Positions 19,783-51,215 of a stretch of 64,000 bases of DNA are shown here, piece by piece; position 1 is the stretch's first letter, and every line of letters starts with the position of its first letter. The translations under genes and the position numbers were made by a program. Origin of the DNA: Oscillospiraceae bacterium (GTDB lineage Bacteria; Bacillota; Clostridia; Oscillospirales; SIG627); contig SVQO01000007.1 of NCBI GenBank assembly GCA_015065325.1, positions 7,504 through 71,503 on the forward strand, in the 5' to 3' direction. Below the pieces are notes generated by a model. It searched no databases and was not told the origin of the DNA. It saw only the letters and a list, made by a program, of their open reading frames with translations.

Positions 19783-19881
19783 GGCAGCGGGATGCGGAAT
19801 CCAAACCGCAAGATGAATCTTTTCGTCCCATGAACAACTCCCCGTTTCAAGGGCACTTAACGCTTGGATTCCTACTCTGTT
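19783..19881 (-). ncRNA. THF riboswitch aptamer
   Basis: Minus strand reads CAGAGUAGG...GCGUUAAGUG...ACGGGGAGUUG...ACGAAAAG...CUUGCGG...CGCAUCCCGCUG. It is followed by a CCUCCUUUUCCG/CGGAAAAGGAGG hairpin over the folT SD. Confidence 0.92.
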
Positions 19882-38465: not shown

Positions 38466-38471
38466 AAACTT

Positions 38472-38541
38472 GTCCTTGCGACTGACGGAGCATAGATTAC
38501 TATGGGGGAACAAGGATGCTACATAGCCGACCGTCTGGGCA
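38472..38541 (+). ncRNA. ZMP/ZTP (pfl) riboswitch; terminator expression platform at 38538-38564
   Basis: P1 UCCUUG/CAAGGA, GCGACUGACGG loop, 3' GCCGACCGUCUGGGC hairpin with GACGG/CCGUC pseudoknot; then GCAUCCU/AGGGUGC-U6. Confidence 0.92.
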
Positions 38542-38583
38542 TCCTGTTATTAGGGTGCTTTTTTGTTTTCTTAGGAGGTATTT

Positions 38584-43705: not shown

Positions 43706-46054
43706 TCATTGTTTCAACGGCACATATAGAACCGTATTAATCGGTCGTACCATTCCAACTGTACTGCCGGTAGATGTAGAGGGGAGGCTAAGCTCCGTAA
43801 AACTTCCGTTTTGAACCATGCCGAGCATTGCAGATCCTCCGCCGTCAACGTTCATTAAGAACTGCATGTCCGGTATGAGTGTGCGTGCGATCAAGCACAT
43901 TTCAGAATAATCTGCGCCGTCAGAATCTGATGTTCTTCCTGAAAAAACAAGGATTATAAGCTCTCCGCTTTTTGTGATTCCGATAGCGGTGCGAGGATGC
44001 TTCGCCAGGGTATGCAACGCCGATTCCTGCGTTTGACGAGATAAAGGAGAGGTCCATCCATCTTCGTAAAACCATTTATCCATATGGTCGCCGTCGCAAA
44101 GTCCGATACCATCAAGGATCAGGGATAGTCCGCCGCCGTATGCCCATTTGACTCCGTTCCATTCCTTGGAATCTACTCCTTCGGGGGCATCAAGCTTGAC
44201 TTGTACACTTACGCTTTTTGTTTCGTAATATCCTCGTTCATTTTTTATAAGCCCAAGCGAATTACAAAGTTTTTCGCCGAGCTCTTTTTCAAGAGAAATT
44301 ACAACCCCCATACCGGGAAGCAGCACGTCACCGTCTCGGATAGCGGTAATCCGTTCCTGAATCAAAACAAAATTGACGCGTTCTTTCCCAACCGCTTTGC
44401 GATATGTTTCTCTGTCTGCATCTTCGTCCGATAAGGAAATATAGGGAGTATAAATACAAACGGGTGCTTGAGGCTTATCATCCTTTGGATCTACATTTTC
44501 CTTATCCCATGACAGAGTGTTACCGTTGATTGAAAGTTGCCCGCCTCCAAGTCTGAAGTTGAAGAACAAAAATTCTCCGTTTTCCTTTAATGCGATACAC
44601 GTTTTACGGAAAAGAGGAAACGTTTCGATCCTTTTGCCGTTGCGATACTCCAAGAGGTAATCCAAATGTCCTGCATCAACTTCAGACATTTCGTCTATCC
44701 TGTCTTGACGCAGAGTGTTATACAGAGTTGCAAGCTTGGGCGTTAAAAAGAATAAAAAGTTTGATACGATTCCGGTGCCATCTTGCTTCTCTTGGCGAAT
44801 TTTTTCGCGGAGGGATGTTTTTTTTCCGCAGGGGAGAACTCCTGCGCCGTCGCTGTTTTTGATGCATACGCCATGCACGAGGATTTTTCCCTTGATTCCT
44901 TCGGTTTCACTTTCGGTAAAGGTCTTGTGAAAATATCTGCAGTTTGAAAAGCTCTCAAGGTGCTCTTTGATAGCTCGAGCTCGCAGAAAATCGTACTGTT
45001 CAAGAGTGATTTTTTCGTTTGGCAAGTCGTTTAACGATAAATTTTCATCAAGTGGCGCGTTTGGGTCTGTTTCGTAAATGTTGAAAAAGCAATGAGGATA
45101 ACGGTTATAAAGCTCCTTTGTTGAAAGAGAATAGATTTGATCACCGTATTTTTTTGCAAGCTTTGCAAGAATTAAATAAGAAAGCCTTGTTTTTTTTGTT
45201 ATAGGAACGTTTTCCACGATAGAAAAGCCGCTGGGAACGAATATTGCAGCTTCTCTTACAATGCCGAGTTGACCGGCTACGGCGCAAGCGTGGTATCCCT
45301 TCGGAATGCAGAAAATTCCGCAAGGAATTTGTAGTTTGCGTGCATCCAGCAGTCCGCTTTCTCCAAAAATAAGAAGAGAGCATTGTTTGATGTTGTAATC
45401 ATTCCTCTCGGAAACAAGCTTACCATTTTCCAAGGAAACGGTATTGATCTCGGGTTCTTTTAAAAGCGAAGTTAAGAGGGGAGGAGAGGGTAAGCCGTAT
45501 TCTGCATTTGCAGACGTAATATAAACGATCTTTTTGTTTTGATAAACCGATGTGGATAAAACCTGTTTCATAGTTGCAAACAAGTTCGGCTCCGTAATTG
45601 CAACAAAAATCGTATTTTTGTCAGCACAGTATTTTTCAATCAGGTCCCGTTGGTCAGTGCAATTATCAAAACTCAGAGGGCGGCTTTCTTCGGAAAATAT
45701 TTCCCAAAGCTTAATGAAAGTGTTTACTCCGAAGATTTCCTCGCGTATGTCTGTTACGAACCGATATATTTCTTCGATAGAATAATCGTCAAAGTTTTTT
45801 AGCGTTTCCAGTGAAAAGAGGGAAGAAATTTTTTTCTTATATTCATAATGCTTTTCTTTCGAGATCAAACCGCGGGTTTCCAAAAGCTCAGCGGTCGTGT
45901 CGGAAATGATCGTGCTTTTTCTGCCTTTTTTCGCGAAGGTAATATGTACATCGCGATAAATAAAGCAATAGTACAGAACGTCGCCGATAAAGTCTTTTCT
46001 GTAATAGGATCCTGCTCTTCTGTCAGAGCGTTGCAAAACAAGTTCTTTTGTCAT
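43706..46054 (-). CDS. Large protein with a C-terminal NAGPA (phosphodiester glycosidase) domain
   Basis: HPRTAIG, GRT, NVDGGGS; start MTKEL with RBS; no signal peptide seen. Confidence 0.75.
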   Translation of the reverse strand: MTKELVLQRSDRRAGSYYRKDFIGDVLYYCFIYRDVHITFAKKGRKSTIISDTTAELLETRGLISKEKHYEYKKKISSLFSLETLKNFDDYSIEEIYRFVTDIREEIFGVNTFIKLWEIFSEESRPLSFDNCTDQRDLIEKYCADKNTIFVAITEPNLFATMKQVLSTSVYQNKKIVYITSANAEYGLPSPPLLTSLLKEPEINTVSLENGKLVSERNDYNIKQCSLLIFGESGLLDARKLQIPCGIFCIPKGYHACAVAGQLGIVREAAIFVPSGFSIVENVPITKKTRLSYLILAKLAKKYGDQIYSLSTKELYNRYPHCFFNIYETDPNAPLDENLSLNDLPNEKITLEQYDFLRARAIKEHLESFSNCRYFHKTFTESETEGIKGKILVHGVCIKNSDGAGVLPCGKKTSLREKIRQEKQDGTGIVSNFLFFLTPKLATLYNTLRQDRIDEMSEVDAGHLDYLLEYRNGKRIETFPLFRKTCIALKENGEFLFFNFRLGGGQLSINGNTLSWDKENVDPKDDKPQAPVCIYTPYISLSDEDADRETYRKAVGKERVNFVLIQERITAIRDGDVLLPGMGVVISLEKELGEKLCNSLGLIKNERGYYETKSVSVQVKLDAPEGVDSKEWNGVKWAYGGGLSLILDGIGLCDGDHMDKWFYEDGWTSPLSRQTQESALHTLAKHPRTAIGITKSGELIILVFSGRTSDSDGADYSEMCLIARTLIPDMQFLMNVDGGGSAMLGMVQNGSFTELSLPSTSTGSTVGMVRPINTVLYVPLKQ

Positions 46055-46160
46055 AATCCTTCCCCAATGTAAATTTGAATTGACATTATAACACCGTTTT
46101 TCTGAAAAATCAACCGAAACTTCTTTTACAAGAAAAAGAAATGATCGGCTTTTACATAAG

Positions 46161-46190
46161 AAAAGGTCTTGTCGAGTTGGCAAGACCTTT
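46161..46190 (-). terminator. Terminator after gatB
   Basis: AAAGGUCUUGCC/GACAAGACCUUUUC on the minus strand. Confidence 0.75.
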
Positions 46191-46196
46191 AAAAAT

Positions 46197-47642
46197 TTAG
46201 TCGATTTTATTGATAGCATCAATCAGCAAGGTTCTAAGCTCTTGGGGATTGCAATTTCCGCGAAGCTCTTTCATGCACTTTCCAAACAACGCCATCAAAG
46301 CCTTTTCTTTGCCTCCTTTGAAGTCGGCAACGGCTTTGGGATCGGATGCGATGGCAGCTTGGATAACCTTGTCAACCAATCCGGTATCGGTGGAAATGAT
46401 CAAACTGTTCTCTTTTGCGTAAGCTTCGGGATCAAGCCGGCTATCGTCGAACATAACGTCCAGGATTTTACGACCGTTGGGTCGGCTTACTTTTCCGTCA
46501 GCAACGAGCTTAATCAGCTTGCCAAGCGTTTCACCGTTGAGTTTCAGCATATCGTAGGTCATCTGGCGAGCGTTCAGCGTCTTCATTACGTCGGAGATCA
46601 TCCAATTCGCCGCGTCCTTTGCGTTGCCGCAGACCTTCATCGCACCCTCAAAGCACTCGCAAAGTGCAATGCTTTCACAAAGTCGCTTAGCATCGTACTC
46701 GGTCAGAGCATATTCTTCTGTATAACGGGCGAGTTTGGTTTCGGGAAATTCGGGAAGGGAAGCCTTGATTTTCTCAAACCAAGTATCATCGATTACAACG
46801 GGCATAATATTCGGGTCTGGGAAGTAGCGGTAATCGCCTGCCGTTTCCTTTGTACGCATCGCAAAGCTTTTTCCCTTGATGTCGTCCCAGCGCCTGGTTT
46901 CTTGTACCAAAACCTCAGTTCCGTTTTCAACTGCATCAATGTGGCGCGCAGTTTCGTATTCGATGGCGCGTTTAATTGCTTCAATGGAGTTCATATTCTT
47001 GATCTCCGTGCGCACGCCGTATTCCGTTGCACCTTCGGGGCGTACAGACAGGTTTACGTCACAGCGCATCGTGCCGTGTGCCATTTCGCATTCTGCAACT
47101 CTGGCGTAACGAAGCAAGGTTTTCAACCTGTCCAGATAAGCTTCAACCTCGTCGGCGGAGGAGAGGTCAGGCTGGCTTACGATCTCAATCAGCGGGACGC
47201 TGGTTCTGTTGAAATCCACGTGCGTCGTTCCTTCGCGAATATCGTGAACCAACTTACCCGCATCTTCTTCCATATGGATTTGTTTGATTCGGATGCCCTT
47301 TTTTCCGTCCTTCGTTTCGATCTCTACGAGGCCGTTGACAGCAACGGGAGAAAACCACTGGGTGGTTTGGAAAGCCGCAGGAAGGTCGGGATAGTAATAG
47401 CTCTTCTTATCAAAGGTAGTAGTGCGGTTGATATGACAGTTCAGCATCATACCGGCTTTCATACCAAAATCAACTACGCGCTTATTGACAATGGGAAGCA
47501 TACCGGGCATACCGCAGCATGCTGGGCATACGTGGGTATTGGGCTCAGCTCCGTAGGAATGTGCAGAGCAGGAGCAGAAAATTTTTGAGTCGGTTGCAAG
47601 TTCTACGTGAACTTCAAGACCGATGACGGTTTCGTAACGCAT
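46197..47642 (-). CDS. gatB: Asp/Glu-tRNA amidotransferase subunit B
   Basis: GLEVHVEL, YPDLP, HMEEDAGK, EIKNMNS, YRYFPDP; start MRYET. Confidence 0.96.
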   Translation of the reverse strand: MRYETVIGLEVHVELATDSKIFCSCSAHSYGAEPNTHVCPACCGMPGMLPIVNKRVVDFGMKAGMMLNCHINRTTTFDKKSYYYPDLPAAFQTTQWFSPVAVNGLVEIETKDGKKGIRIKQIHMEEDAGKLVHDIREGTTHVDFNRTSVPLIEIVSQPDLSSADEVEAYLDRLKTLLRYARVAECEMAHGTMRCDVNLSVRPEGATEYGVRTEIKNMNSIEAIKRAIEYETARHIDAVENGTEVLVQETRRWDDIKGKSFAMRTKETAGDYRYFPDPNIMPVVIDDTWFEKIKASLPEFPETKLARYTEEYALTEYDAKRLCESIALCECFEGAMKVCGNAKDAANWMISDVMKTLNARQMTYDMLKLNGETLGKLIKLVADGKVSRPNGRKILDVMFDDSRLDPEAYAKENSLIISTDTGLVDKVIQAAIASDPKAVADFKGGKEKALMALFGKCMKELRGNCNPQELRTLLIDAINKID

Positions 47643-47646
47643 CTTA

Positions 47647-48834
47647 TTATCCCTCCTGTTCAATGATTTGTGCCAAGCAAAGTAGTTTTCCTTCTTCAAA
47701 GGCATCGGCAATGAATTGCACGCCGCCTGCTACGAGAGCAGGAAGTCCGGTAATCGACGCAGGAGCGGTGAATTTGTTTTCCTCGTAACACAGCGTCAGG
47801 TTTTCCTTTACATCCTCAACTGAGTAAGATGTTTTAGACGTAGCGGGGAGTAAAACTGCATCGTAAGATTTGAAAAGCAAGGCGAATTTCTCGGAAATCA
47901 CGCGTCTGATTCGCAAGGATTTATCGTACTGCTTCATGTAGTTTTTGTCTGAAAGAGTTTCAGATCCGAAAAGAATGCAGGTCTTGATCAGATCACCGAA
48001 AGCCTCGGTGCGGCTGTTGGTATAAAGCTCGTCAAGATTGGTGAAATTCTGAGTACGGTAGCCGTATTTTACGCCGTCAAAGCGTGAAACGTTGTTGCAG
48101 GTCTCAGCGCTCATGAGAATATTCCAAGCAACTCTTGCGGCGGCAATCTCATCGCTGTTGATTTCAACGACTTCAACTCCGCTTTTCTTCAATGCTTCAA
48201 TTGTTAAGTAGATACTTTTCTGTACATCTGCTTCAGCTTCAGCAATGAAATCCTTCAGTACGGCAACTTTTGCAGCCTTTTTTTCTTTATTGATCGAAAT
48301 ACAAGCATCTTCAGAAAGACTGGTTCCGTCCTTATCGTCGTGATGAGCGATCACAGACAAGATCTCGCGGACGGTGTCGGTTGTTTCTGCGCAAATTCCC
48401 ACGGTATCACCGGAGGAAGCAACGCCTACAAGACCAAAACGCGACACGGTACCGTAAGTCGGTTTCAGATATACAAGACCGCTCTGGGCAGCCCCTCTGC
48501 GGGGAGCGCCGTTGGCGTCAAGACAGAGGGCGGCGAGGACCTCTCCGTCTTTTACTAGCTCGCAGGGAGCGTAAACAAGCTTCCCATCCTTTTCGGTAGC
48601 GCCCTTATAGCAGGTTTCGCCCAAAAGGTCGATGGCAAATTCGCCAACCTTTGCTTTTCCGCCGAGTGCAAAGCCTGAGTTACTCAGGAGAGTAAATACC
48701 TCTGCATCAAACAGACTCATATAGCCGTCCAGCATTTTTGAACCCGCGGTGGTGGGAAGACTCTTGGTTAAAAAGAGGTCGTCAAGAGCAACGGTCTTTT
48801 CTTTTTTTTCACCTTTTGCAAGATAAAGCTCCAT
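47647..48834 (-). CDS. gatA: GatA homolog, shortened, catalytic triad absent
   Basis: TTAGSKML, KPTYGTVSRFGL, SRFDGVKYGYR and position between gatC and gatB; Lys, GGSSGG and DTGGS motifs degenerate. Confidence 0.9.
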   Translation of the reverse strand: MELYLAKGEKKEKTVALDDLFLTKSLPTTAGSKMLDGYMSLFDAEVFTLLSNSGFALGGKAKVGEFAIDLLGETCYKGATEKDGKLVYAPCELVKDGEVLAALCLDANGAPRRGAAQSGLVYLKPTYGTVSRFGLVGVASSGDTVGICAETTDTVREILSVIAHHDDKDGTSLSEDACISINKEKKAAKVAVLKDFIAEAEADVQKSIYLTIEALKKSGVEVVEINSDEIAAARVAWNILMSAETCNNVSRFDGVKYGYRTQNFTNLDELYTNSRTEAFGDLIKTCILFGSETLSDKNYMKQYDKSLRIRRVISEKFALLFKSYDAVLLPATSKTSYSVEDVKENLTLCYEENKFTAPASITGLPALVAGGVQFIADAFEEGKLLCLAQIIEQEG

Positions 48835-48845
48835 TTTTTACCTCC

Positions 48846-49127
48846 TTATTCTACGACACGGGGGACGCACCAGTATCCCTCGTCGGTGTCAACTGCACCT
48901 TTTTGCAGATCTTCTCTTTGGAATTTTTGATCGATCACGTCTTCACGGACCACGGTCTCAATGGGACACACGTGAACCATTCTTTCAACGTTTTCCGTGT
49001 CAATATTATTTAATACTCCAAGCTCTTCGTCACGCTTTGCAAAGAAAGCAATAACGGATGCTTTCTGTTCTTCGTTTAAAGAAAGCTGGTTGAGCATTGC
49101 AAGTTTTCTTAAAGTTTCTCTATCCAT
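48846..49127 (-). CDS. gatC: Amidotransferase subunit C
   Basis: LRKLAMLNQL, IDTENVE, VREDV, VPRVVE; operon position. Confidence 0.9.
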   Translation of the reverse strand: MDRETLRKLAMLNQLSLNEEQKASVIAFFAKRDEELGVLNNIDTENVERMVHVCPIETVVREDVIDQKFQREDLQKGAVDTDEGYWCVPRVVE

Positions 49128-49142
49128 TTTCGTTCTCCAATA

Positions 49143-50918
49143 TTAGTCACGAACCTTGATATGCACTTCTCTGAGCTGTTGCTCGGTTACTTCTCCGGGA
49201 GCGCCCATCATCAGATCCTGAGCATTTCCGTTAAGGGGGAAGGCAATAACGTCTCTGATGGTTTCCTCCTCGGCGATCAGCATTACCATTCTGTCAACAC
49301 CGGGGGCCATACCTGCGTGGGGAGGAGCGCCGAAGGAAAATGCGGTGTAAAGCGCACCGAATTTTGCCTTTAGCTCGTCTTCGCCGTAACCTGCGATGGC
49401 AAAAGCTTTTCTCATGATCTCGGGATTGTGATTTCGAACTGCTCCGGAGGAGAGCTCAACACCGTTGCAAACGATGTCATACTGATAAGCAAAGATGTCC
49501 AAAGGATCTTTGTTTTCGAGTGCTTCCATACCGCCCTGAGGCATAGAGAAGGGGTTGTGCGTAAAGTCAATCTTGCCGGTTTCTTCGTTCTTTTCGTACA
49601 TGGGGAAGTCAACGATAAAGCAGAATTCAAAGGAGTCGTTCTTGATCAGACCAAGTTCGTTTCCGATCCAGGTTCTCATTTCTCCTGCAAGACGGTTGAT
49701 CACGTTTGCCGCATCGCTGATAAAGAACAGACTTTCTCCTTCCTGAATGCCGACAAGCTCTGTAAGCTCTGCCTTTTGCTCTTCGGTAAGGAATTTTGCA
49801 ATGGGACCCTTATATTCGCCTTCTTCGAGGGTAATGTAACCGATACCGAACTTCATGCCGATGCTTCTGGAATAAGCGTCGATTGCCTTTTCGAAGGCTT
49901 TCTTTCCGTCGCCGTCACCGTCCTTCTTAACGAGATAGTTTGCTACGATACCGCGAACGAGCTTGTTCTTGAAGGGGACAGTTCTGCCGTTGATGGTGAG
50001 AAATTCGTGCTTGGCAAAGAAATCGGTCAGGTCCTGAATGAGAAGGGGATTGCGCAGGTCGGGTTTGTCGGAGCCGTACTTCATCATAGCATCTGCAAAG
50101 GTGATGCGGCGGAAGGGGGGCTCGGAAACTTTTTTATCAGAGAACTTTTTGAAGGTATTATATACAACCTTTTCAGCAACTGCGAAAACATCCTCCTGGG
50201 TGGCAAAGCTCATTTCAAAATCAAGCTGATAGAATTCTCCGGGAGATCTGTCCTGACGTGCATCCTCATCACGGAAGCAGGGGGCGATCTGGAAATAGCG
50301 GTCGAAACCGGAAGCCATCAGCAGCTGCTTGAACTGTTGGGGAGCCTGAGGAAGCGCATAGAATTTTCCCTTATGCTTACGGCTGGGCACCAGATAGTCT
50401 CTTGCGCCCTCGGGAGAAGAAGCGGTCAGAATGGGGGTGTTGATCTCCATAAAGCCCATATCTTCCATCTGACGGCGCAGATAAGAGACGATCTTAGAGC
50501 GAAGCACGATGTTATCGTGGATTTTTCGATTTCTCAGATCCAGATATCTGTATTTCAGTCTTACTTCCTCTCGGGTCTGCGTAGAAGCGTCGATTTCAAA
50601 GGGCAGACCCAGCTGACAGGGACCAAGGACCTCAATGCGTGCAGCCTTAACCTCGATTAAGCCGGTGTCGAGCTTTGCGTTTACGGTGTCCTCGTCGCGG
50701 CGCATAACCTCGCCTTCAACAAGAATTACGGTCTCCTTGGGCATACCTTGGATCATCTTATCATCTGAAAGCACGACTTGGGTAATACCATAGTGGTCAC
50801 GAAGATCCACAAACAAAACGCCGCCGTGGTCGCGAACGGTGTCGATCCAACCGGTCAGAGTTACTTTCTGTCCGATGTGGTCAACTCTCAGATCGTTACA
50901 AGTGTGAGTTCTCAGCAT
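49143..50918 (-). CDS. aspS: Aspartyl-tRNA synthetase, probably non-discriminating
   Basis: RDHGG, YRYLDLR, FRDED, PPHAG; co-transcribed with gatCAB under an Asn T-box. Confidence 0.95.
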   Translation of the reverse strand: MLRTHTCNDLRVDHIGQKVTLTGWIDTVRDHGGVLFVDLRDHYGITQVVLSDDKMIQGMPKETVILVEGEVMRRDEDTVNAKLDTGLIEVKAARIEVLGPCQLGLPFEIDASTQTREEVRLKYRYLDLRNRKIHDNIVLRSKIVSYLRRQMEDMGFMEINTPILTASSPEGARDYLVPSRKHKGKFYALPQAPQQFKQLLMASGFDRYFQIAPCFRDEDARQDRSPGEFYQLDFEMSFATQEDVFAVAEKVVYNTFKKFSDKKVSEPPFRRITFADAMMKYGSDKPDLRNPLLIQDLTDFFAKHEFLTINGRTVPFKNKLVRGIVANYLVKKDGDGDGKKAFEKAIDAYSRSIGMKFGIGYITLEEGEYKGPIAKFLTEEQKAELTELVGIQEGESLFFISDAANVINRLAGEMRTWIGNELGLIKNDSFEFCFIVDFPMYEKNEETGKIDFTHNPFSMPQGGMEALENKDPLDIFAYQYDIVCNGVELSSGAVRNHNPEIMRKAFAIAGYGEDELKAKFGALYTAFSFGAPPHAGMAPGVDRMVMLIAEEETIRDVIAFPLNGNAQDLMMGAPGEVTEQQLREVHIKVRD

Positions 50919-50975: not shown

Positions 50976-51203
50976 AAAAAACCTTTCGCCCCAAGCATGG
51001 GACGAAAGGTAAACTTCCGCGATACCACCCAAATTGACCGAAAAGGTCCTCTCATTTTCATCCTTACGGGATGAGCGTGCGGTTCTAATCACCCGGGGGC
51101 TTTCTTCCGCAAACTCCGGAGTGTTTTTCTCGAAAAGGCTTTGCCGAATTTCCACCGCCATCGGCTCTCTGAAAAAGCTGATTTTTCGATACTCTCTCCA
51201 TCT
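50976..51203 (-). ncRNA. T-box leader with Asn (AAC) specifier
   Basis: Stem I GGAG-AGUA...AGAGAG...GGUGGAA...GAA-A-AAC-A-CUCC (AAC at 51123-51125); T-box AAUUUGGGUGGUAUCGCGG; terminator ACCUUUCGUCCCA/UGGGGCGAAAGGU plus U-tract. Confidence 0.92.
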
Positions 51204-51215
51204 ACGTATAGGGTA

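What the first reader, a model, noticed from the sequence alone, without database searches (positions are those of the whole stretch)
47647..48834. Glutaminase-dead GatA in an intact aspS-gatCAB operon: candidate ammonia-dependent tRNA amidotransferase
Established: GatA releases NH3 from Gln/Asn using a Ser-cisSer-Lys triad in the motifs IKDN, GGSSGGS and GSDTGGSIRQP. Seen: the Lys is Asp (VALDDLF, 48781-48783), the NP...GGSSGGS loop is absent (ETCYKGATEKDGKLVYAP), and the nucleophile motif reads CLDANGAPRRG (Ser to Ala, 48505-48507). The N-terminal ~60 aa are also missing. Yet the ORF is uninterrupted, has a GGAGG RBS, and keeps KPTYG.VSRFGL, SRFDGVKYGYR and SRTEAFG, while GatB and GatC look intact. 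Loss of all three catalytic residues with the scaffold retained argues for a selected pseudoenzyme rather than decay. Inference: GatB takes free ammonia (GatCAB is known to accept NH4+ in vitro) or uses another donor subunit, with GatA as scaffold or NH3 conduit.
Basis: partly seen in the sequence, partly recalled or inferred. Interest (0 to 1): 0.88.

Follow-up and report, generated by a model that had tools for sequence, protein, structure and literature searches.

The report
Dead GatA in working asparagine-tRNA operon
A gut bacterium that has no asparaginyl-tRNA synthetase keeps, under selection, a shortened GatA subunit that has lost every residue needed to split glutamine, so its only route to asparagine-charged tRNA must get its nitrogen some other way.

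Summary
The 395-aa ORF (47647-48834, minus strand) is a GatA homologue lacking about 61 N-terminal residues. Against S. aureus GatA it reads K79->D, the cis-Ser154 loop is deleted, S178->A, and the glutamine-binding residues read Y309->W, R358->C, D425->N.

It is not decay:
- More than 100 homologues share the losses (Lys->Asp in 117 of 117).
- dN/dS is about 0.1.
- The order aspS-gatC-gatA'-gatB holds in every related locus the contigs allow.
- The operon follows a T-box leader whose specifier is AAC (Asn).

In its GTDB family (51 genomes), 21 carry gatA' and 24 carry asnS, with no overlap. In an order-wide sample, 0 of 11 gatA' genomes have asnS, against 166 of 201 overall. GlnRS is present in 45 of 51. 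The complex is therefore very probably the sole, working Asp-tRNA(Asn) amidotransferase.

The nitrogen source is not shown. A new lead: all 21 gatA' genomes, and none of the 24 asnS genomes, carry one asparaginase-family gene. In many relatives it sits directly after gatB, sometimes followed by an AlaX-like gene. The window's genome has only an unlinked ordinary asparaginase.

Best reading: pseudo-GatA scaffold plus ammonia supplied in trans. I found no description of this in print.

The parts
50976..51213 (-). T-box leader with Asn (AAC) specifier, followed by the terminator hairpin (arms 51009-50999 and 50992-50982) and a T run (50981-50976)
   Evidence: Rfam RF00230 scores 107.7 bits (gathering 93) at 50995-51213. 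The specifier loop GAAAAAC plus a purine is invariant in 8 of 8 aligned leaders. The terminator was read from the sequence.
49143..50918 (-). aspS paralogue (591 aa), the presumed non-discriminating AspRS that charges tRNA(Asn) with Asp
   Evidence: NF001750 scores 770 bits. A second AspRS, only 40% identical, lies on contig C1 of the genome. This gene stands first in the operon wherever the contig allows: 10 of 10 loci (each ORF cut at the locus edge, which is the fetch flank, or the contig end in L016) and 50 of 53 (L042, L079 and L084 are cut at the contig end).
48846..49127 (-). gatC (93 aa)
   Evidence: TIGR00135 scores 61.7 bits, cut-off 47.1. dN/dS is 0.06-0.15 in pairs with dS near 1.
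47647..48834 (-). gatA' (395 aa): N-terminally shortened GatA homologue with no Ser-cisSer-Lys triad and no glutamine-binding residues
   Evidence: AlphaFold2 model: mean pLDDT 96.3. Best structural matches are GatA chains of GatCAB complexes, TM 0.91-0.93 by query length.
46197..47642 (-). gatB (481 aa, start MRYETV, 4 nt after the gatA' stop)
   Evidence: NF004012 scores 588 bits, cut-off 338. It is the only gatB in the genome. dN/dS is 0.013-0.047 in pairs with dS near 1.

Best explanation
gatA' encodes a catalytically dead, shortened GatA. It is kept as the structural partner of GatB (with GatC) in a dedicated Asp-tRNA(Asn) amidotransferase.

Proposed working. When uncharged tRNA(Asn) accumulates, the AAC T-box lets transcription run through. 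The operon's own AspRS paralogue puts Asp on tRNA(Asn). GatB phosphorylates and amidates it to Asn-tRNA(Asn). In this organism that is the only route to Asn-tRNA(Asn), because it has no AsnRS, AsnA or AsnB.

GatA' cannot bind or split glutamine, so the nitrogen reaches GatB as ammonia made elsewhere. The sources would be the ammonia-rich gut habitat and/or the cell's single asparaginase-family enzyme, which turns otherwise unusable free Asn into exactly the two substrates needed (Asp and NH3). GatA' would serve as scaffold and perhaps as the mouth of the old ammonia tunnel.

Shown here: loss of all catalytic and substrate residues, purifying selection, operon and T-box conservation, and complementarity with asnS.

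Inferred: complex assembly, ammonia as the donor, and the role of the asparaginase.
For: (1) Dead glutaminase.
- K79->D, the cis-Ser154 loop deleted, S178->A, Y309->W, R358->C, D425->N.
- In 120 close homologues: D at the Lys column in 117 of 117 (3 gaps), L or I at the cis-Ser column in 120 of 120, R358 kept in 1 of 120, D425 kept in 0 of 120.
- 74 canonical representatives keep K, S, S in 74 of 74, R in 72 and D in 71.
- 70 operon-linked copies from fetched loci: D 68, E 1, gap 1; no R358; no D425.

(2) Selection, not decay.
- dN/dS is 0.06-0.13 for gatA' in pairs with dS near 1.
- The fold is intact: pLDDT 96.3, and the top matches are GatA chains.

(3) A working Asn pathway.
- A T-box stands upstream. 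Its specifier AAC plus a purine is invariant in 8 of 8 leaders, and a T-box was found in 7 of 8 relatives examined.
- Gene order is conserved in 10 of 10 and 53 of 53 loci as far as the contigs reach.

(4) Necessity.
- G000 has one GatA/amidase, one gatB, and no asnS, asnA or asnB.
- Family of 51 genomes: 21 with gatA', 24 with asnS, overlap 0. The only genome with both a gatA and asnS (G048) has a canonical gatA (562 bits). The 6 genomes with neither are 63-88% complete.
- Order sample of 201 genomes: 0 of 11 gatA' genomes, in 6 GTDB families, have asnS, against 166 of 201 overall. In families f8, f21 and f24 the single asnS-less genome is the gatA' one.
- glnS is present in 45 of 51, so the enzyme is not needed for Gln.

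(5) Ammonia can serve.
- NH4Cl works as donor for a GatCAB-type enzyme, and damaging the glutaminase site raised NH4Cl-dependent activity (PMC4027206, abstract and passages read).

(6) A source in the cell.
- An asparaginase-family gene is present in 22 of 51 family genomes. These are all 21 gatA' genomes plus G011 (88% complete, neither gatA nor asnS found), and 0 of 24 asnS genomes.
- In G000 it is a 331-aa ordinary asparaginase on contig C13.

(7) Habitat.
- The record titles of related MAGs name goat, sheep, cattle, deer and buffalo gut and faeces.
Against: - There is no biochemistry. Nothing here shows that the complex forms or which donor it uses.
- In P. aeruginosa the GatA look-alike Tse8 takes GatA's place and is toxic by lowering Asn-tRNA(Asn) supply (10.1101/733030, passages read). 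An inert A subunit is therefore not automatically tolerated, and free ammonia was not enough there.
- In relatives the divergent asparaginase (AnsX) follows gatB with gaps of 3-64 nt. That looks more like a subunit than a free housekeeping enzyme.
- G052 (97% complete) has gatA' and no asparaginase hit at all, though it also holds a canonical gatA in pieces.
- Ordinary asparaginases also occur in 10 of 11 asnS-less genomes with canonical gatA (family f28). The asparaginase may therefore track loss of AsnRS (Asn salvage) rather than the dead GatA.
- All genomes are MAGs. G000 is 88.7% complete and lacks even gltX and a tRNA-Asn gene in the assembly.
- Relatives are not independent samples.
- dS is near saturation in many pairs.
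Confidence: 0.55

Rival explanations
1. The asparaginase-family protein is a true donor subunit. It would be AnsX in most relatives and the ordinary asparaginase in this genome. It would dock on the GatC-GatA'-GatB core, hydrolyse Asn or Gln, and pass ammonia through the remnant GatA' pocket and tunnel. That would be a bacterial counterpart of the archaeal GatD logic.
For: - AnsX lies next to the operon in 16 of 59 loci. In 9 of these it is directly after gatB on the same strand at 20-260 nt.
- In 12 of the 18 family genomes that carry AnsX it is adjacent, and in 7 of these it follows gatB after 3-64 nt.
- Full-length AnsX is found in 9 of 11 gatA' genomes of the order sample, but in only 5 of the other 190.
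- The TGGT and HGTD motifs are invariant.
- GatD models are its second-best NCBIfam hits.
- A natural AnsX fusion to an AlaX-like tRNA-binding domain exists (P0273).
Against: - 39 of 59 loci have no AnsX or AlaX-like gene in the flanks fetched.
- The window's lineage (G000, G007, G016) carries a different, ordinary asparaginase, unlinked and without a T-box.
- AnsX scores far below the GatD cut-offs (about 90 bits against 310-324) and lacks GatD's N-terminal domain.
- Its model matches free-standing type I asparaginases best.
- No AnsX-GatA' or AnsX-GatB fusion was found, though that is weak evidence.
Confidence: 0.22
2. GatA' still makes ammonia, or activates another nitrogen donor, at a rebuilt active site that uses residues other than the Ser-cisSer-Lys triad.
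For: - The changed residues are themselves conserved: Asp at the Lys column in 117 of 117, Trp for Tyr309 in 67 of 70, RR for RQ in 120 of 120, and the Asp of the SDTGG motif kept in 119 of 120.
- Ser persists at the nucleophile column in 62 of 120.
Against: - The nucleophile column is freely variable (S, A, T, Y, M, N, F).
- The cis-Ser loop is deleted.
- The columns of the two substrate-binding residues R358 and D425 vary among small and polar residues.
- gatA' evolves several-fold faster than gatB (dN 0.09-0.17 against 0.008-0.05). In 3 canonical pairs GatA is more conserved than GatB.
Confidence: 0.08
3. The operon is not the Asn-tRNA route: gatA' is a relic or has an unrelated role, and the apparent lack of AsnRS is an artefact of incomplete MAGs.
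For: - All genomes are MAGs.
- G000 lacks gltX, glnS and tRNA-Asn in its assembly.
- One relative (G022) has an in-frame TAG in gatA'.
- A different triad-less type coexists with asnS in G234 and G188.
Against: - asnS is missing from 21 of 21 and 11 of 11 gatA' genomes, several of them 94-98% complete, while it is found in 166 of 201 sampled genomes.
- dN/dS is about 0.1.
- The Asn-specific T-box is conserved.
Confidence: 0.05

Closest known systems
Canonical bacterial GatCAB (e.g. S. aureus 2DF4/2F2A; transamidosomes 3KFU, 4WJ3, 3AL0)
   Same: - The gatC-gatA-gatB gene order is the same.
- GatB and GatC pass their equivalog cut-offs.
- GatA' has the GatA fold, and the top structural matches are these chains.
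- The task is the same: Asp-tRNA(Asn) to Asn-tRNA(Asn) in an organism without AsnRS.
   Different: - The Ser-cisSer-Lys triad and the Tyr309/Arg358/Asp425 glutamine site are all gone.
- About 61 N-terminal residues are missing.
- It scores 258 bits against the 481-bit cut-off.
- GatA' evolves faster than GatB, the reverse of 3 canonical pairs.
T-box-controlled aspS-gatCAB operon of Clostridium acetobutylicum (Saad et al. 2012, J Biol Chem; the paper is not held, and I know it from the citation and text in PMC4206432, and from recall)
   Same: Both place an extra AspRS paralogue and a gatCAB set behind a T-box leader that responds to tRNA(Asn), in Clostridia.
   Different: I could not check whether that GatA keeps its triad. 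Here the A subunit is dead, and the operon replaces AsnRS rather than adding to it.
Archaeal GatDE
   Same: An asparaginase-family protein is tied to a GatB/GatE-type kinase-amidotransferase. This holds only if the AnsX lead is right.
   Different: AnsX lacks GatD's N-terminal domain and falls far below the GatD cut-offs. The kinase subunit here is a true GatB. A GatC and a GatA-like protein are still present.
Tse8 of P. aeruginosa (10.1101/733030, passages read)
   Same: It is a GatA-like protein without GatA's glutamine-binding residues that takes the A position next to GatB and GatC.
   Different: Tse8 keeps the triad, comes from outside as a toxin, and poisons the complex. GatA' is the resident subunit of an essential operon.
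AtzE-AtzG 'vestigial' complex (PDB 6C62; title seen only)
   Same: A GatA-derived amidase is kept together with a GatC-like helper.
   Different: AtzE is an active amidase in a catabolic pathway and has no GatB. Here the amidase is dead and GatB is the active part.
Ammonia-using relatives of glutamine amidotransferases that keep an inactive glutaminase domain (e.g. carbamoyl-phosphate synthetase I; recalled, not from any call)
   Same: A dead glutaminase module is kept as part of the structure while the synthetase takes free ammonia.
   Different: The enzyme family is different. No such case is known to me for tRNA-dependent amidotransferases.

Membership tests
GatA (NCBIfam TIGR00132, equivalog) | Score at or above the curated cut-off | tested here: not met
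   257.8 bits against a cut-off of 481.1, covering model positions 62-463 of 466. The genome search gave 256.5 bits.
GatA (NCBIfam TIGR00132, equivalog) | Ser-cisSer-Lys catalytic triad (S178, S154, K79 in S. aureus numbering) | tested here: not met
   D18 stands at K79, the loop holding S154 is deleted, and A110 stands at S178.
GatA (NCBIfam TIGR00132, equivalog) | Glutamine-binding residues Tyr309, Arg358, Asp425 | tested here: not met
   They read W, C and N here. Among 120 homologues, R is kept in 1 and D in 0. The residue roles come from 10.1101/733030 and PMC4027206 section 16.
GatA (NCBIfam TIGR00132, equivalog) | Gene lies between gatC and gatB | tested here: met
GatA (NCBIfam TIGR00132, equivalog) | Glutaminase activity | not testable with these tools
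   This needs an enzyme assay.
Amidase signature superfamily (Pfam PF01425) | Profile match above the gathering score, and the fold | tested here: met
   179.3 bits against 27. The AF2 model has pLDDT 96.3, and its best matches are GatA chains at TM 0.91-0.93 by query length.
GatCAB-type tRNA-dependent amidotransferase (whole system) | Intact GatB and GatC | tested here: met
   GatB 588 bits (cut-off 338) and GatC 61.7 bits (cut-off 47.1).
GatCAB-type tRNA-dependent amidotransferase (whole system) | The three subunits assemble | not testable with these tools
   This needs co-purification or a solved structure.
GatCAB-type tRNA-dependent amidotransferase (whole system) | Needed because AsnRS is absent | tested here: met
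   No asnS in G000. 0 of 21 and 0 of 11 gatA' genomes have asnS.
T-box (Asn)-regulated aspS-gatCAB operon | T-box leader with an AAC specifier upstream of aspS | tested here: met
   RF00230 scores 107.7 bits. GAAAAAC plus a purine is invariant in 8 of 8 leaders.
Archaeal GatDE | GatD (asparaginase with an extra N-terminal domain) paired with GatE | tested here: not met
   AnsX scores 67-90 bits against GatD cut-offs of 310-324, with matches starting at GatD model positions 63-76. The kinase subunit is a GatB equivalog; its GatE score is 162 bits against a cut-off of 456.
Pseudoenzyme (general sense) | Catalytic residues lost while the gene stays under purifying selection | tested here: met

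The most novel reading that the evidence does not exclude
This would be a further type of tRNA-dependent amidotransferase. A GatC / pseudo-GatA / GatB core would take its nitrogen from an asparaginase-family partner (AnsX), in some lineages together with an AlaX-like tRNA-binding or proofreading protein. Together with the operon's own AspRS, the set would convert free asparagine into Asn-tRNA(Asn) without any AsnRS: Asn -> Asp + NH3; Asp onto tRNA(Asn); then re-amidation on the tRNA. The window carries the minimal four-gene form and borrows an ordinary asparaginase.
Probability: 0.25. Interest if true: 0.92.

Novelty: new variant of a known kind. Interest (0 to 1): 0.82.

Why it matters
GatCAB is the textbook case of a glutaminase coupled through an ammonia tunnel to a tRNA-dependent kinase and amidotransferase. 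A large, selected family in which the glutaminase is dead, yet the enzyme is the organism's only way to make Asn-tRNA(Asn), would have four consequences.

1. The indirect pathway can run without glutamine. A review states that glutamine-independent Asn-tRNA formation was known only for AsnA plus AsnRS organisms (PMC2330236, passage read).
2. It gives a natural system for asking what GatA contributes besides catalysis: scaffold, tunnel mouth, or coupling.
3. NCBI names these proteins 'hypothetical protein' (4 named rows) and JGI names one 'subunit A'. Pathway reconstructions of gut and rumen Clostridia may therefore mis-score asparagine metabolism.
4. The linked asparaginase-like and AlaX-like genes point to unrecognised parts of a transamidosome.

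All of this can be tested directly with standard expression and aminoacylation assays.

Tried and rejected
Complex modelling. The verdict was 'no answer'. The score was 0.94, but the control with GatB replaced scored 0.86, so it counts neither for nor against binding.

Expression. The look-up of sequencing runs for RNA listed no RNA holder. This is no evidence either way, and read laying was therefore not used.

- Papers not held: PMC3370219 (Saad 2012), PMC2830067 (Wu 2009), PMC3604897. As a result I could not check whether the C. acetobutylicum GatA2 keeps its triad, and I could not get a residue list for the ammonia tunnel. Tunnel conservation in GatA' was not tested.
- Supplements were not consulted.

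Literature. Seven searches found no paper describing a triad-less GatA or an asparaginase linked to bacterial gatCAB. This covers only the held library.

tRNA check. I looked for tRNA(Asn) to check the U1-A72 identity pair and the T-box discriminator match. No tRNA-Asn gene is in the G000 assembly or in the window.

Fusions. No AnsX-GatA' or AnsX-GatB fusion turned up. The long relatives found were AnsX-PfkB (2), AnsX-AlaX-like (1), one amidase-FtsX-like and one GatA-GatB of canonical type.

Rejected readings.
- Decay or pseudogene: rejected on dN/dS and conservation.
- Mis-called start hiding an N-terminal domain: rejected, because gatC ends 12 nt upstream.
- Second canonical gatA elsewhere in the genome: none in the 88.7% complete assembly.

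Caveats on the tree. It is FastTree with a midpoint root, and I did not inspect support values. 41 triad-less rows fall in three deep groups outside the canonical clade and 21 are scattered inside it. The rows are the best hits to a triad-less query, so they are enriched for such proteins, and long-branch attraction is possible.
Full report
What is there. On the minus strand the window carries, in order:
- a T-box leader (50995-51213; Rfam 107.7 bits, gathering 93)
- aspS (49143-50918)
- gatC (48846-49127)
- the flagged ORF, here called gatA' (47647-48834, 395 aa)
- gatB (46197-47642, starting 4 nt after the gatA' stop)

AspRS, GatC and GatB pass their NCBIfam equivalog cut-offs: 770 bits against 443, 61.7 against 47.1, and 588 against 338. 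GatA' does not: 257.8 bits against 481.1, matching only model positions 62-463 of 466. A strong ribosome-binding site (AAGGAGGT) lies 7 nt before its ATG, and gatC ends 12 nt upstream, so the missing N-terminus (about 61 residues) is not hidden by a wrong start.

- In the alignment to S. aureus GatA (2df4_A, E 2.1e-53), Asp18 stands at Lys79, the GGSSGGS loop with cis-Ser154 is deleted, and Ala110 stands at the nucleophile Ser178.
- The roles of these residues are stated in PMC2330236 (passages) and PMC4027206 (section 16).
- The three glutamine-binding residues of S. aureus GatA (Tyr309, Arg358, Asp425; 10.1101/733030, passage) read Trp, Cys and Asn here.
- The protein still has the GatA fold. 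The AlphaFold2 model has mean pLDDT 96.3, and its ten best PDB matches are GatA chains, the first nine from GatCAB/GatFAB-type assemblies (TM 0.89-0.93 by query length) and the tenth the lone T. maritima subunit 2gi3 (0.82).

It is a family, not an accident.
- The word-indexed search gave 6173 proteins at E <= 1e-10 among 8000 candidates scored. The best 120 are 57-100% identical and 363-406 aa long, from Clostridia MAGs, and are named 'hypothetical protein' where NCBI names them.
- Aligned with a canonical GatA from a relative (G048, locus L010), the Lys column is Asp in 117 of 117 (3 gaps). The cis-Ser column is Leu or Ile in 120 of 120. Arg358 survives in 1 of 120 and Asp425 in 0 of 120.
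- The nucleophile column is free to vary (S 62, A 41, T 10, Y 4, M 2, N 1).
- 74 canonical representatives keep K, S, S in 74 of 74, R in 72 and D in 71.
- In 70 operon-linked copies taken from fetched loci the picture is the same: D 68, E 1, gap 1; no Arg358; no Asp425.
- The exhaustive search found 9650 relatives at E <= 0.001. Among 136 aligned rows of at least 330 aa, 62 lack at least one triad residue. 41 of these sit in three deep groups outside the canonical clade of a quick tree (caveats under Tried and rejected). Triad-less GatA-like proteins are therefore numerous and diverse.

It is under selection.
- Nei-Gojobori dN/dS for gatA' is 0.06-0.13 in pairs with dS near 1. For gatB it is 0.013-0.047 and for gatC 0.06-0.15. 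dS approaches saturation in the more distant pairs.
- GatA' changes several times faster than GatB in the same genome pairs. Identities to the window are, for example, 57% against 76% and 79% against 92%.
- In 3 canonical pairs GatA is the more conserved of the two: 52% against 46%, 56% against 53%, 50% against 43% (small n).
- This pattern fits loss of catalytic constraint with a retained structural role. GatC, whose known job is to help GatA fold and to clamp it to GatB (PMC2330236), is kept as well.

It belongs to a working asparagine route.
- The order aspS-gatC-gatA'-gatB is found in 10 of 10 loci of the same GTDB family.
- It is also found in 53 of 53 loci from named MAGs, as far as the contigs reach. 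aspS is seen in 50 and gatC in 52; the missing ones are cut by contig ends.
- A T-box precedes aspS in 7 of 8 relatives examined; the eighth region is cut by a contig start.
- In all 8 aligned leaders the specifier loop reads GAAAAAC followed by a purine, that is, the Asn codon AAC in the standard register.
- The operon's AspRS is a paralogue. A second AspRS, 40% identical, lies elsewhere in the genome.

It is needed.
- The window's genome (G000; 2.06 Mb, 35 contigs, 88.7% complete) has one GatA/amidase homologue, one gatB, and no asnS, asnA or asnB.
- glnS and gltX were not found either. This shows the assembly has gaps, since GluRS is indispensable.
- In the GTDB family (51 genomes), 21 carry gatA' (166-271 bits), 1 (G048) carries a canonical gatA (562 bits), and 24 carry asnS. 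No gatA' genome has asnS, and G048 is the only genome with both a gatA and asnS. The 6 genomes with neither are 63-88% complete. glnS is present in 45 of 51, so the enzyme is not needed for glutamine.
- In an order-wide sample (201 genomes at least 85% complete), the window-type gatA' occurs in 11 genomes of 6 GTDB families. The operon context was checked for the 7 outside the window's family. None of the 11 has asnS, against 166 of 201 overall. In three families the one asnS-less genome is exactly the gatA' carrier.
- Relatives are not independent, but the repeated switch within genera and across families is hard to explain unless the operon does AsnRS's job.

Where does the nitrogen come from? 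This is not shown.
- GatA' cannot bind or hydrolyse glutamine by the known mechanism.
- GatCAB-type enzymes accept NH4Cl in vitro, and weakening the glutaminase site of yeast GatFAB increased NH4Cl-dependent activity (PMC4027206).
- The related MAGs come from ruminant and other animal guts (record titles). These are ammonia-rich habitats; that statement is from my own knowledge, not a call.
- Against a simple 'free ammonia is enough': in P. aeruginosa the GatA look-alike Tse8 takes GatA's place and is toxic by starving the cell of Asn-tRNA(Asn) (10.1101/733030).

A new lead: an asparaginase.
- While clustering the neighbours of the 59 loci I found a divergent asparaginase-family gene, here called AnsX. 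It is about 340-360 aa and scores 88-106 bits on PF00710. It scores about 88-105 bits on the type I asparaginase model, against a cut-off of 260, and GatD models come second. The TGGT and HGTD motifs are invariant.
- AnsX lies beside the operon in 16 of 59 loci, in 9 of them directly after gatB on the same strand.
- In the GTDB family, a PF00710 gene is present in 22 of 51 genomes: all 21 gatA' genomes plus G011 (88% complete, with neither gatA nor asnS). It is present in none of the 24 asnS genomes.
- 19 of these 22 carry AnsX. In 12 of the 18 gatA' genomes with AnsX it is adjacent to the operon, and in 7 it follows gatB after 3-64 nt.
- The window's own lineage (G000, G007, G016) instead carries an ordinary asparaginase (191-205 bits). 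In G000 it is a 331-aa protein on contig C13, unlinked and without a T-box.
- In the order sample, full-length AnsX is found in 9 of 11 gatA' genomes and in 5 of the other 190.
- However, ordinary asparaginases also occur in 10 of 11 asnS-less genomes that have a canonical gatA (family f28). An asparaginase may therefore simply go with the loss of AsnRS, because free Asn is useless without AsnRS unless it is turned into Asp.
- Either way, the asparaginase reaction yields exactly the two substrates the operon needs, Asp and NH3.
- The AnsX model (pLDDT 90.5) matches free-standing type I asparaginases best.

A further accessory.
- An AlaX-L-like gene (tRNA_SAD and DHHA1 domains, about 385 aa) follows ansX or gatB in 10 of 59 loci.
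- One natural AnsX-AlaX-like fusion exists.
- It could proofread Asp-tRNA(Asn) or tether the asparaginase to tRNA. This was not tested.

Exceptions and limits.
- Two loci (L075, L079) carry a complete canonical gatC-gatA-gatB set right after gatC-gatA'-gatB. The dead form is therefore a distinct paralogous system, not a degraded copy of the only one.
- Other triad-less types coexist with asnS. G234 has a Glu-type protein in an aspS-gatC-gatA''-gatB operon, together with a canonical gatA. G188 has a full-length Glu-type gatA''-gatB.
- G052 has gatA' and no asparaginase hit, but it also has a canonical gatA in pieces.
- All genomes are MAGs.

Verdict.
- The claim 'selected pseudoenzyme in a functional, essential Asn-tRNA operon' is strongly supported.
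- The nitrogen donor remains open between ammonia supplied in trans (my best reading, 0.55) and a docked asparaginase-type subunit (0.22).
- In seven literature searches I found nothing describing this (held library only).
- It is a new variant of a known kind of system and is readily testable.

Noticed in passing
Relatives: e.g. L098:6704-7735 (+), L068:8647-9729 (+), L051:8570-9628 (+); G020:C34:23967-24947; G026:C43:35468-36457: A divergent asparaginase-family gene (AnsX) lies directly after gatB in many relatives. It co-occurs with gatA' in the GTDB family: all 21 gatA' genomes have a PF00710 gene and 0 of 24 asnS genomes do. It is absent from the window, whose genome has an ordinary asparaginase on contig C13 (4547-5119).
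   Followed up: yes
L048:9621-10784 (+); also L053, L058, L068, L074, L078, L085, L098, L101, L056: An AlaX-L-like gene (tRNA_SAD plus DHHA1 domains, about 385 aa) follows ansX or gatB in 10 of 59 loci. One natural AnsX-AlaX-like fusion (P0273, 813 aa) and two AnsX-PfkB fusions (P0271, P0272) exist. It may proofread Asp-tRNA(Asn) or act as a tRNA tether.
   Followed up: partly
L075:9264-12166 and L079:3071-6033: A complete canonical gatC-gatA-gatB set, with intact KDN, GGSSGG and GSDTGGS motifs, lies immediately downstream of the gatC-gatA'-gatB set. The two systems coexist in tandem in these MAGs.
   Followed up: partly
L092 (G188:C48) and L095 (G234:C29): Other triad-less GatA types with Glu at the Lys position. 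G188 has a full-length gatA''-gatB without aspS, in a genome that has asnS. G234 has aspS-gatC-gatA''-gatB in a genome that also has a canonical gatA and asnS. The link 'dead GatA = no AsnRS' does not hold for these types.
   Followed up: partly
G055:C31:9991-10350, G082:C1:444130-444762, G194:C122:15337-15663, G208:C77:23706-24029: Short GatA-like ORFs (302-323 aa, 82-99 bits on TIGR00132, matching only the middle of the model). G208 also has an AnsX-like gene (215 bits) and no asnS. These may be still more reduced GatA relics.
   Followed up: no
G022:C96:16125-17273: This relative's gatA' has one in-frame TAG.
   Followed up: no
window 19783-19881 (-) and 38468-38547 (+): A THF riboswitch (91.4 bits) and a ZMP/ZTP riboswitch (54.5 bits), both above their gathering scores.
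   Followed up: no
window 43706-46222 (-): A long ORF (up to 838 aa) lies directly downstream of gatB and overlaps its end. It has only a C-terminal NAGPA (phosphodiester glycosidase) domain. This neighbour is not conserved in relatives.
   Followed up: no
whole genome G000: The assembly (88.7% complete) has no gltX, glnS or tRNA-Asn gene, so absences in this single genome need support from relatives.
   Followed up: yes
window protein against NCBIfam: The second-best NCBIfam hit of GatA' is NF005517 (PRK07139 'amidase', 154 bits against a cut-off of 546). I did not examine what that family is or whether its members keep the triad.
   Followed up: no
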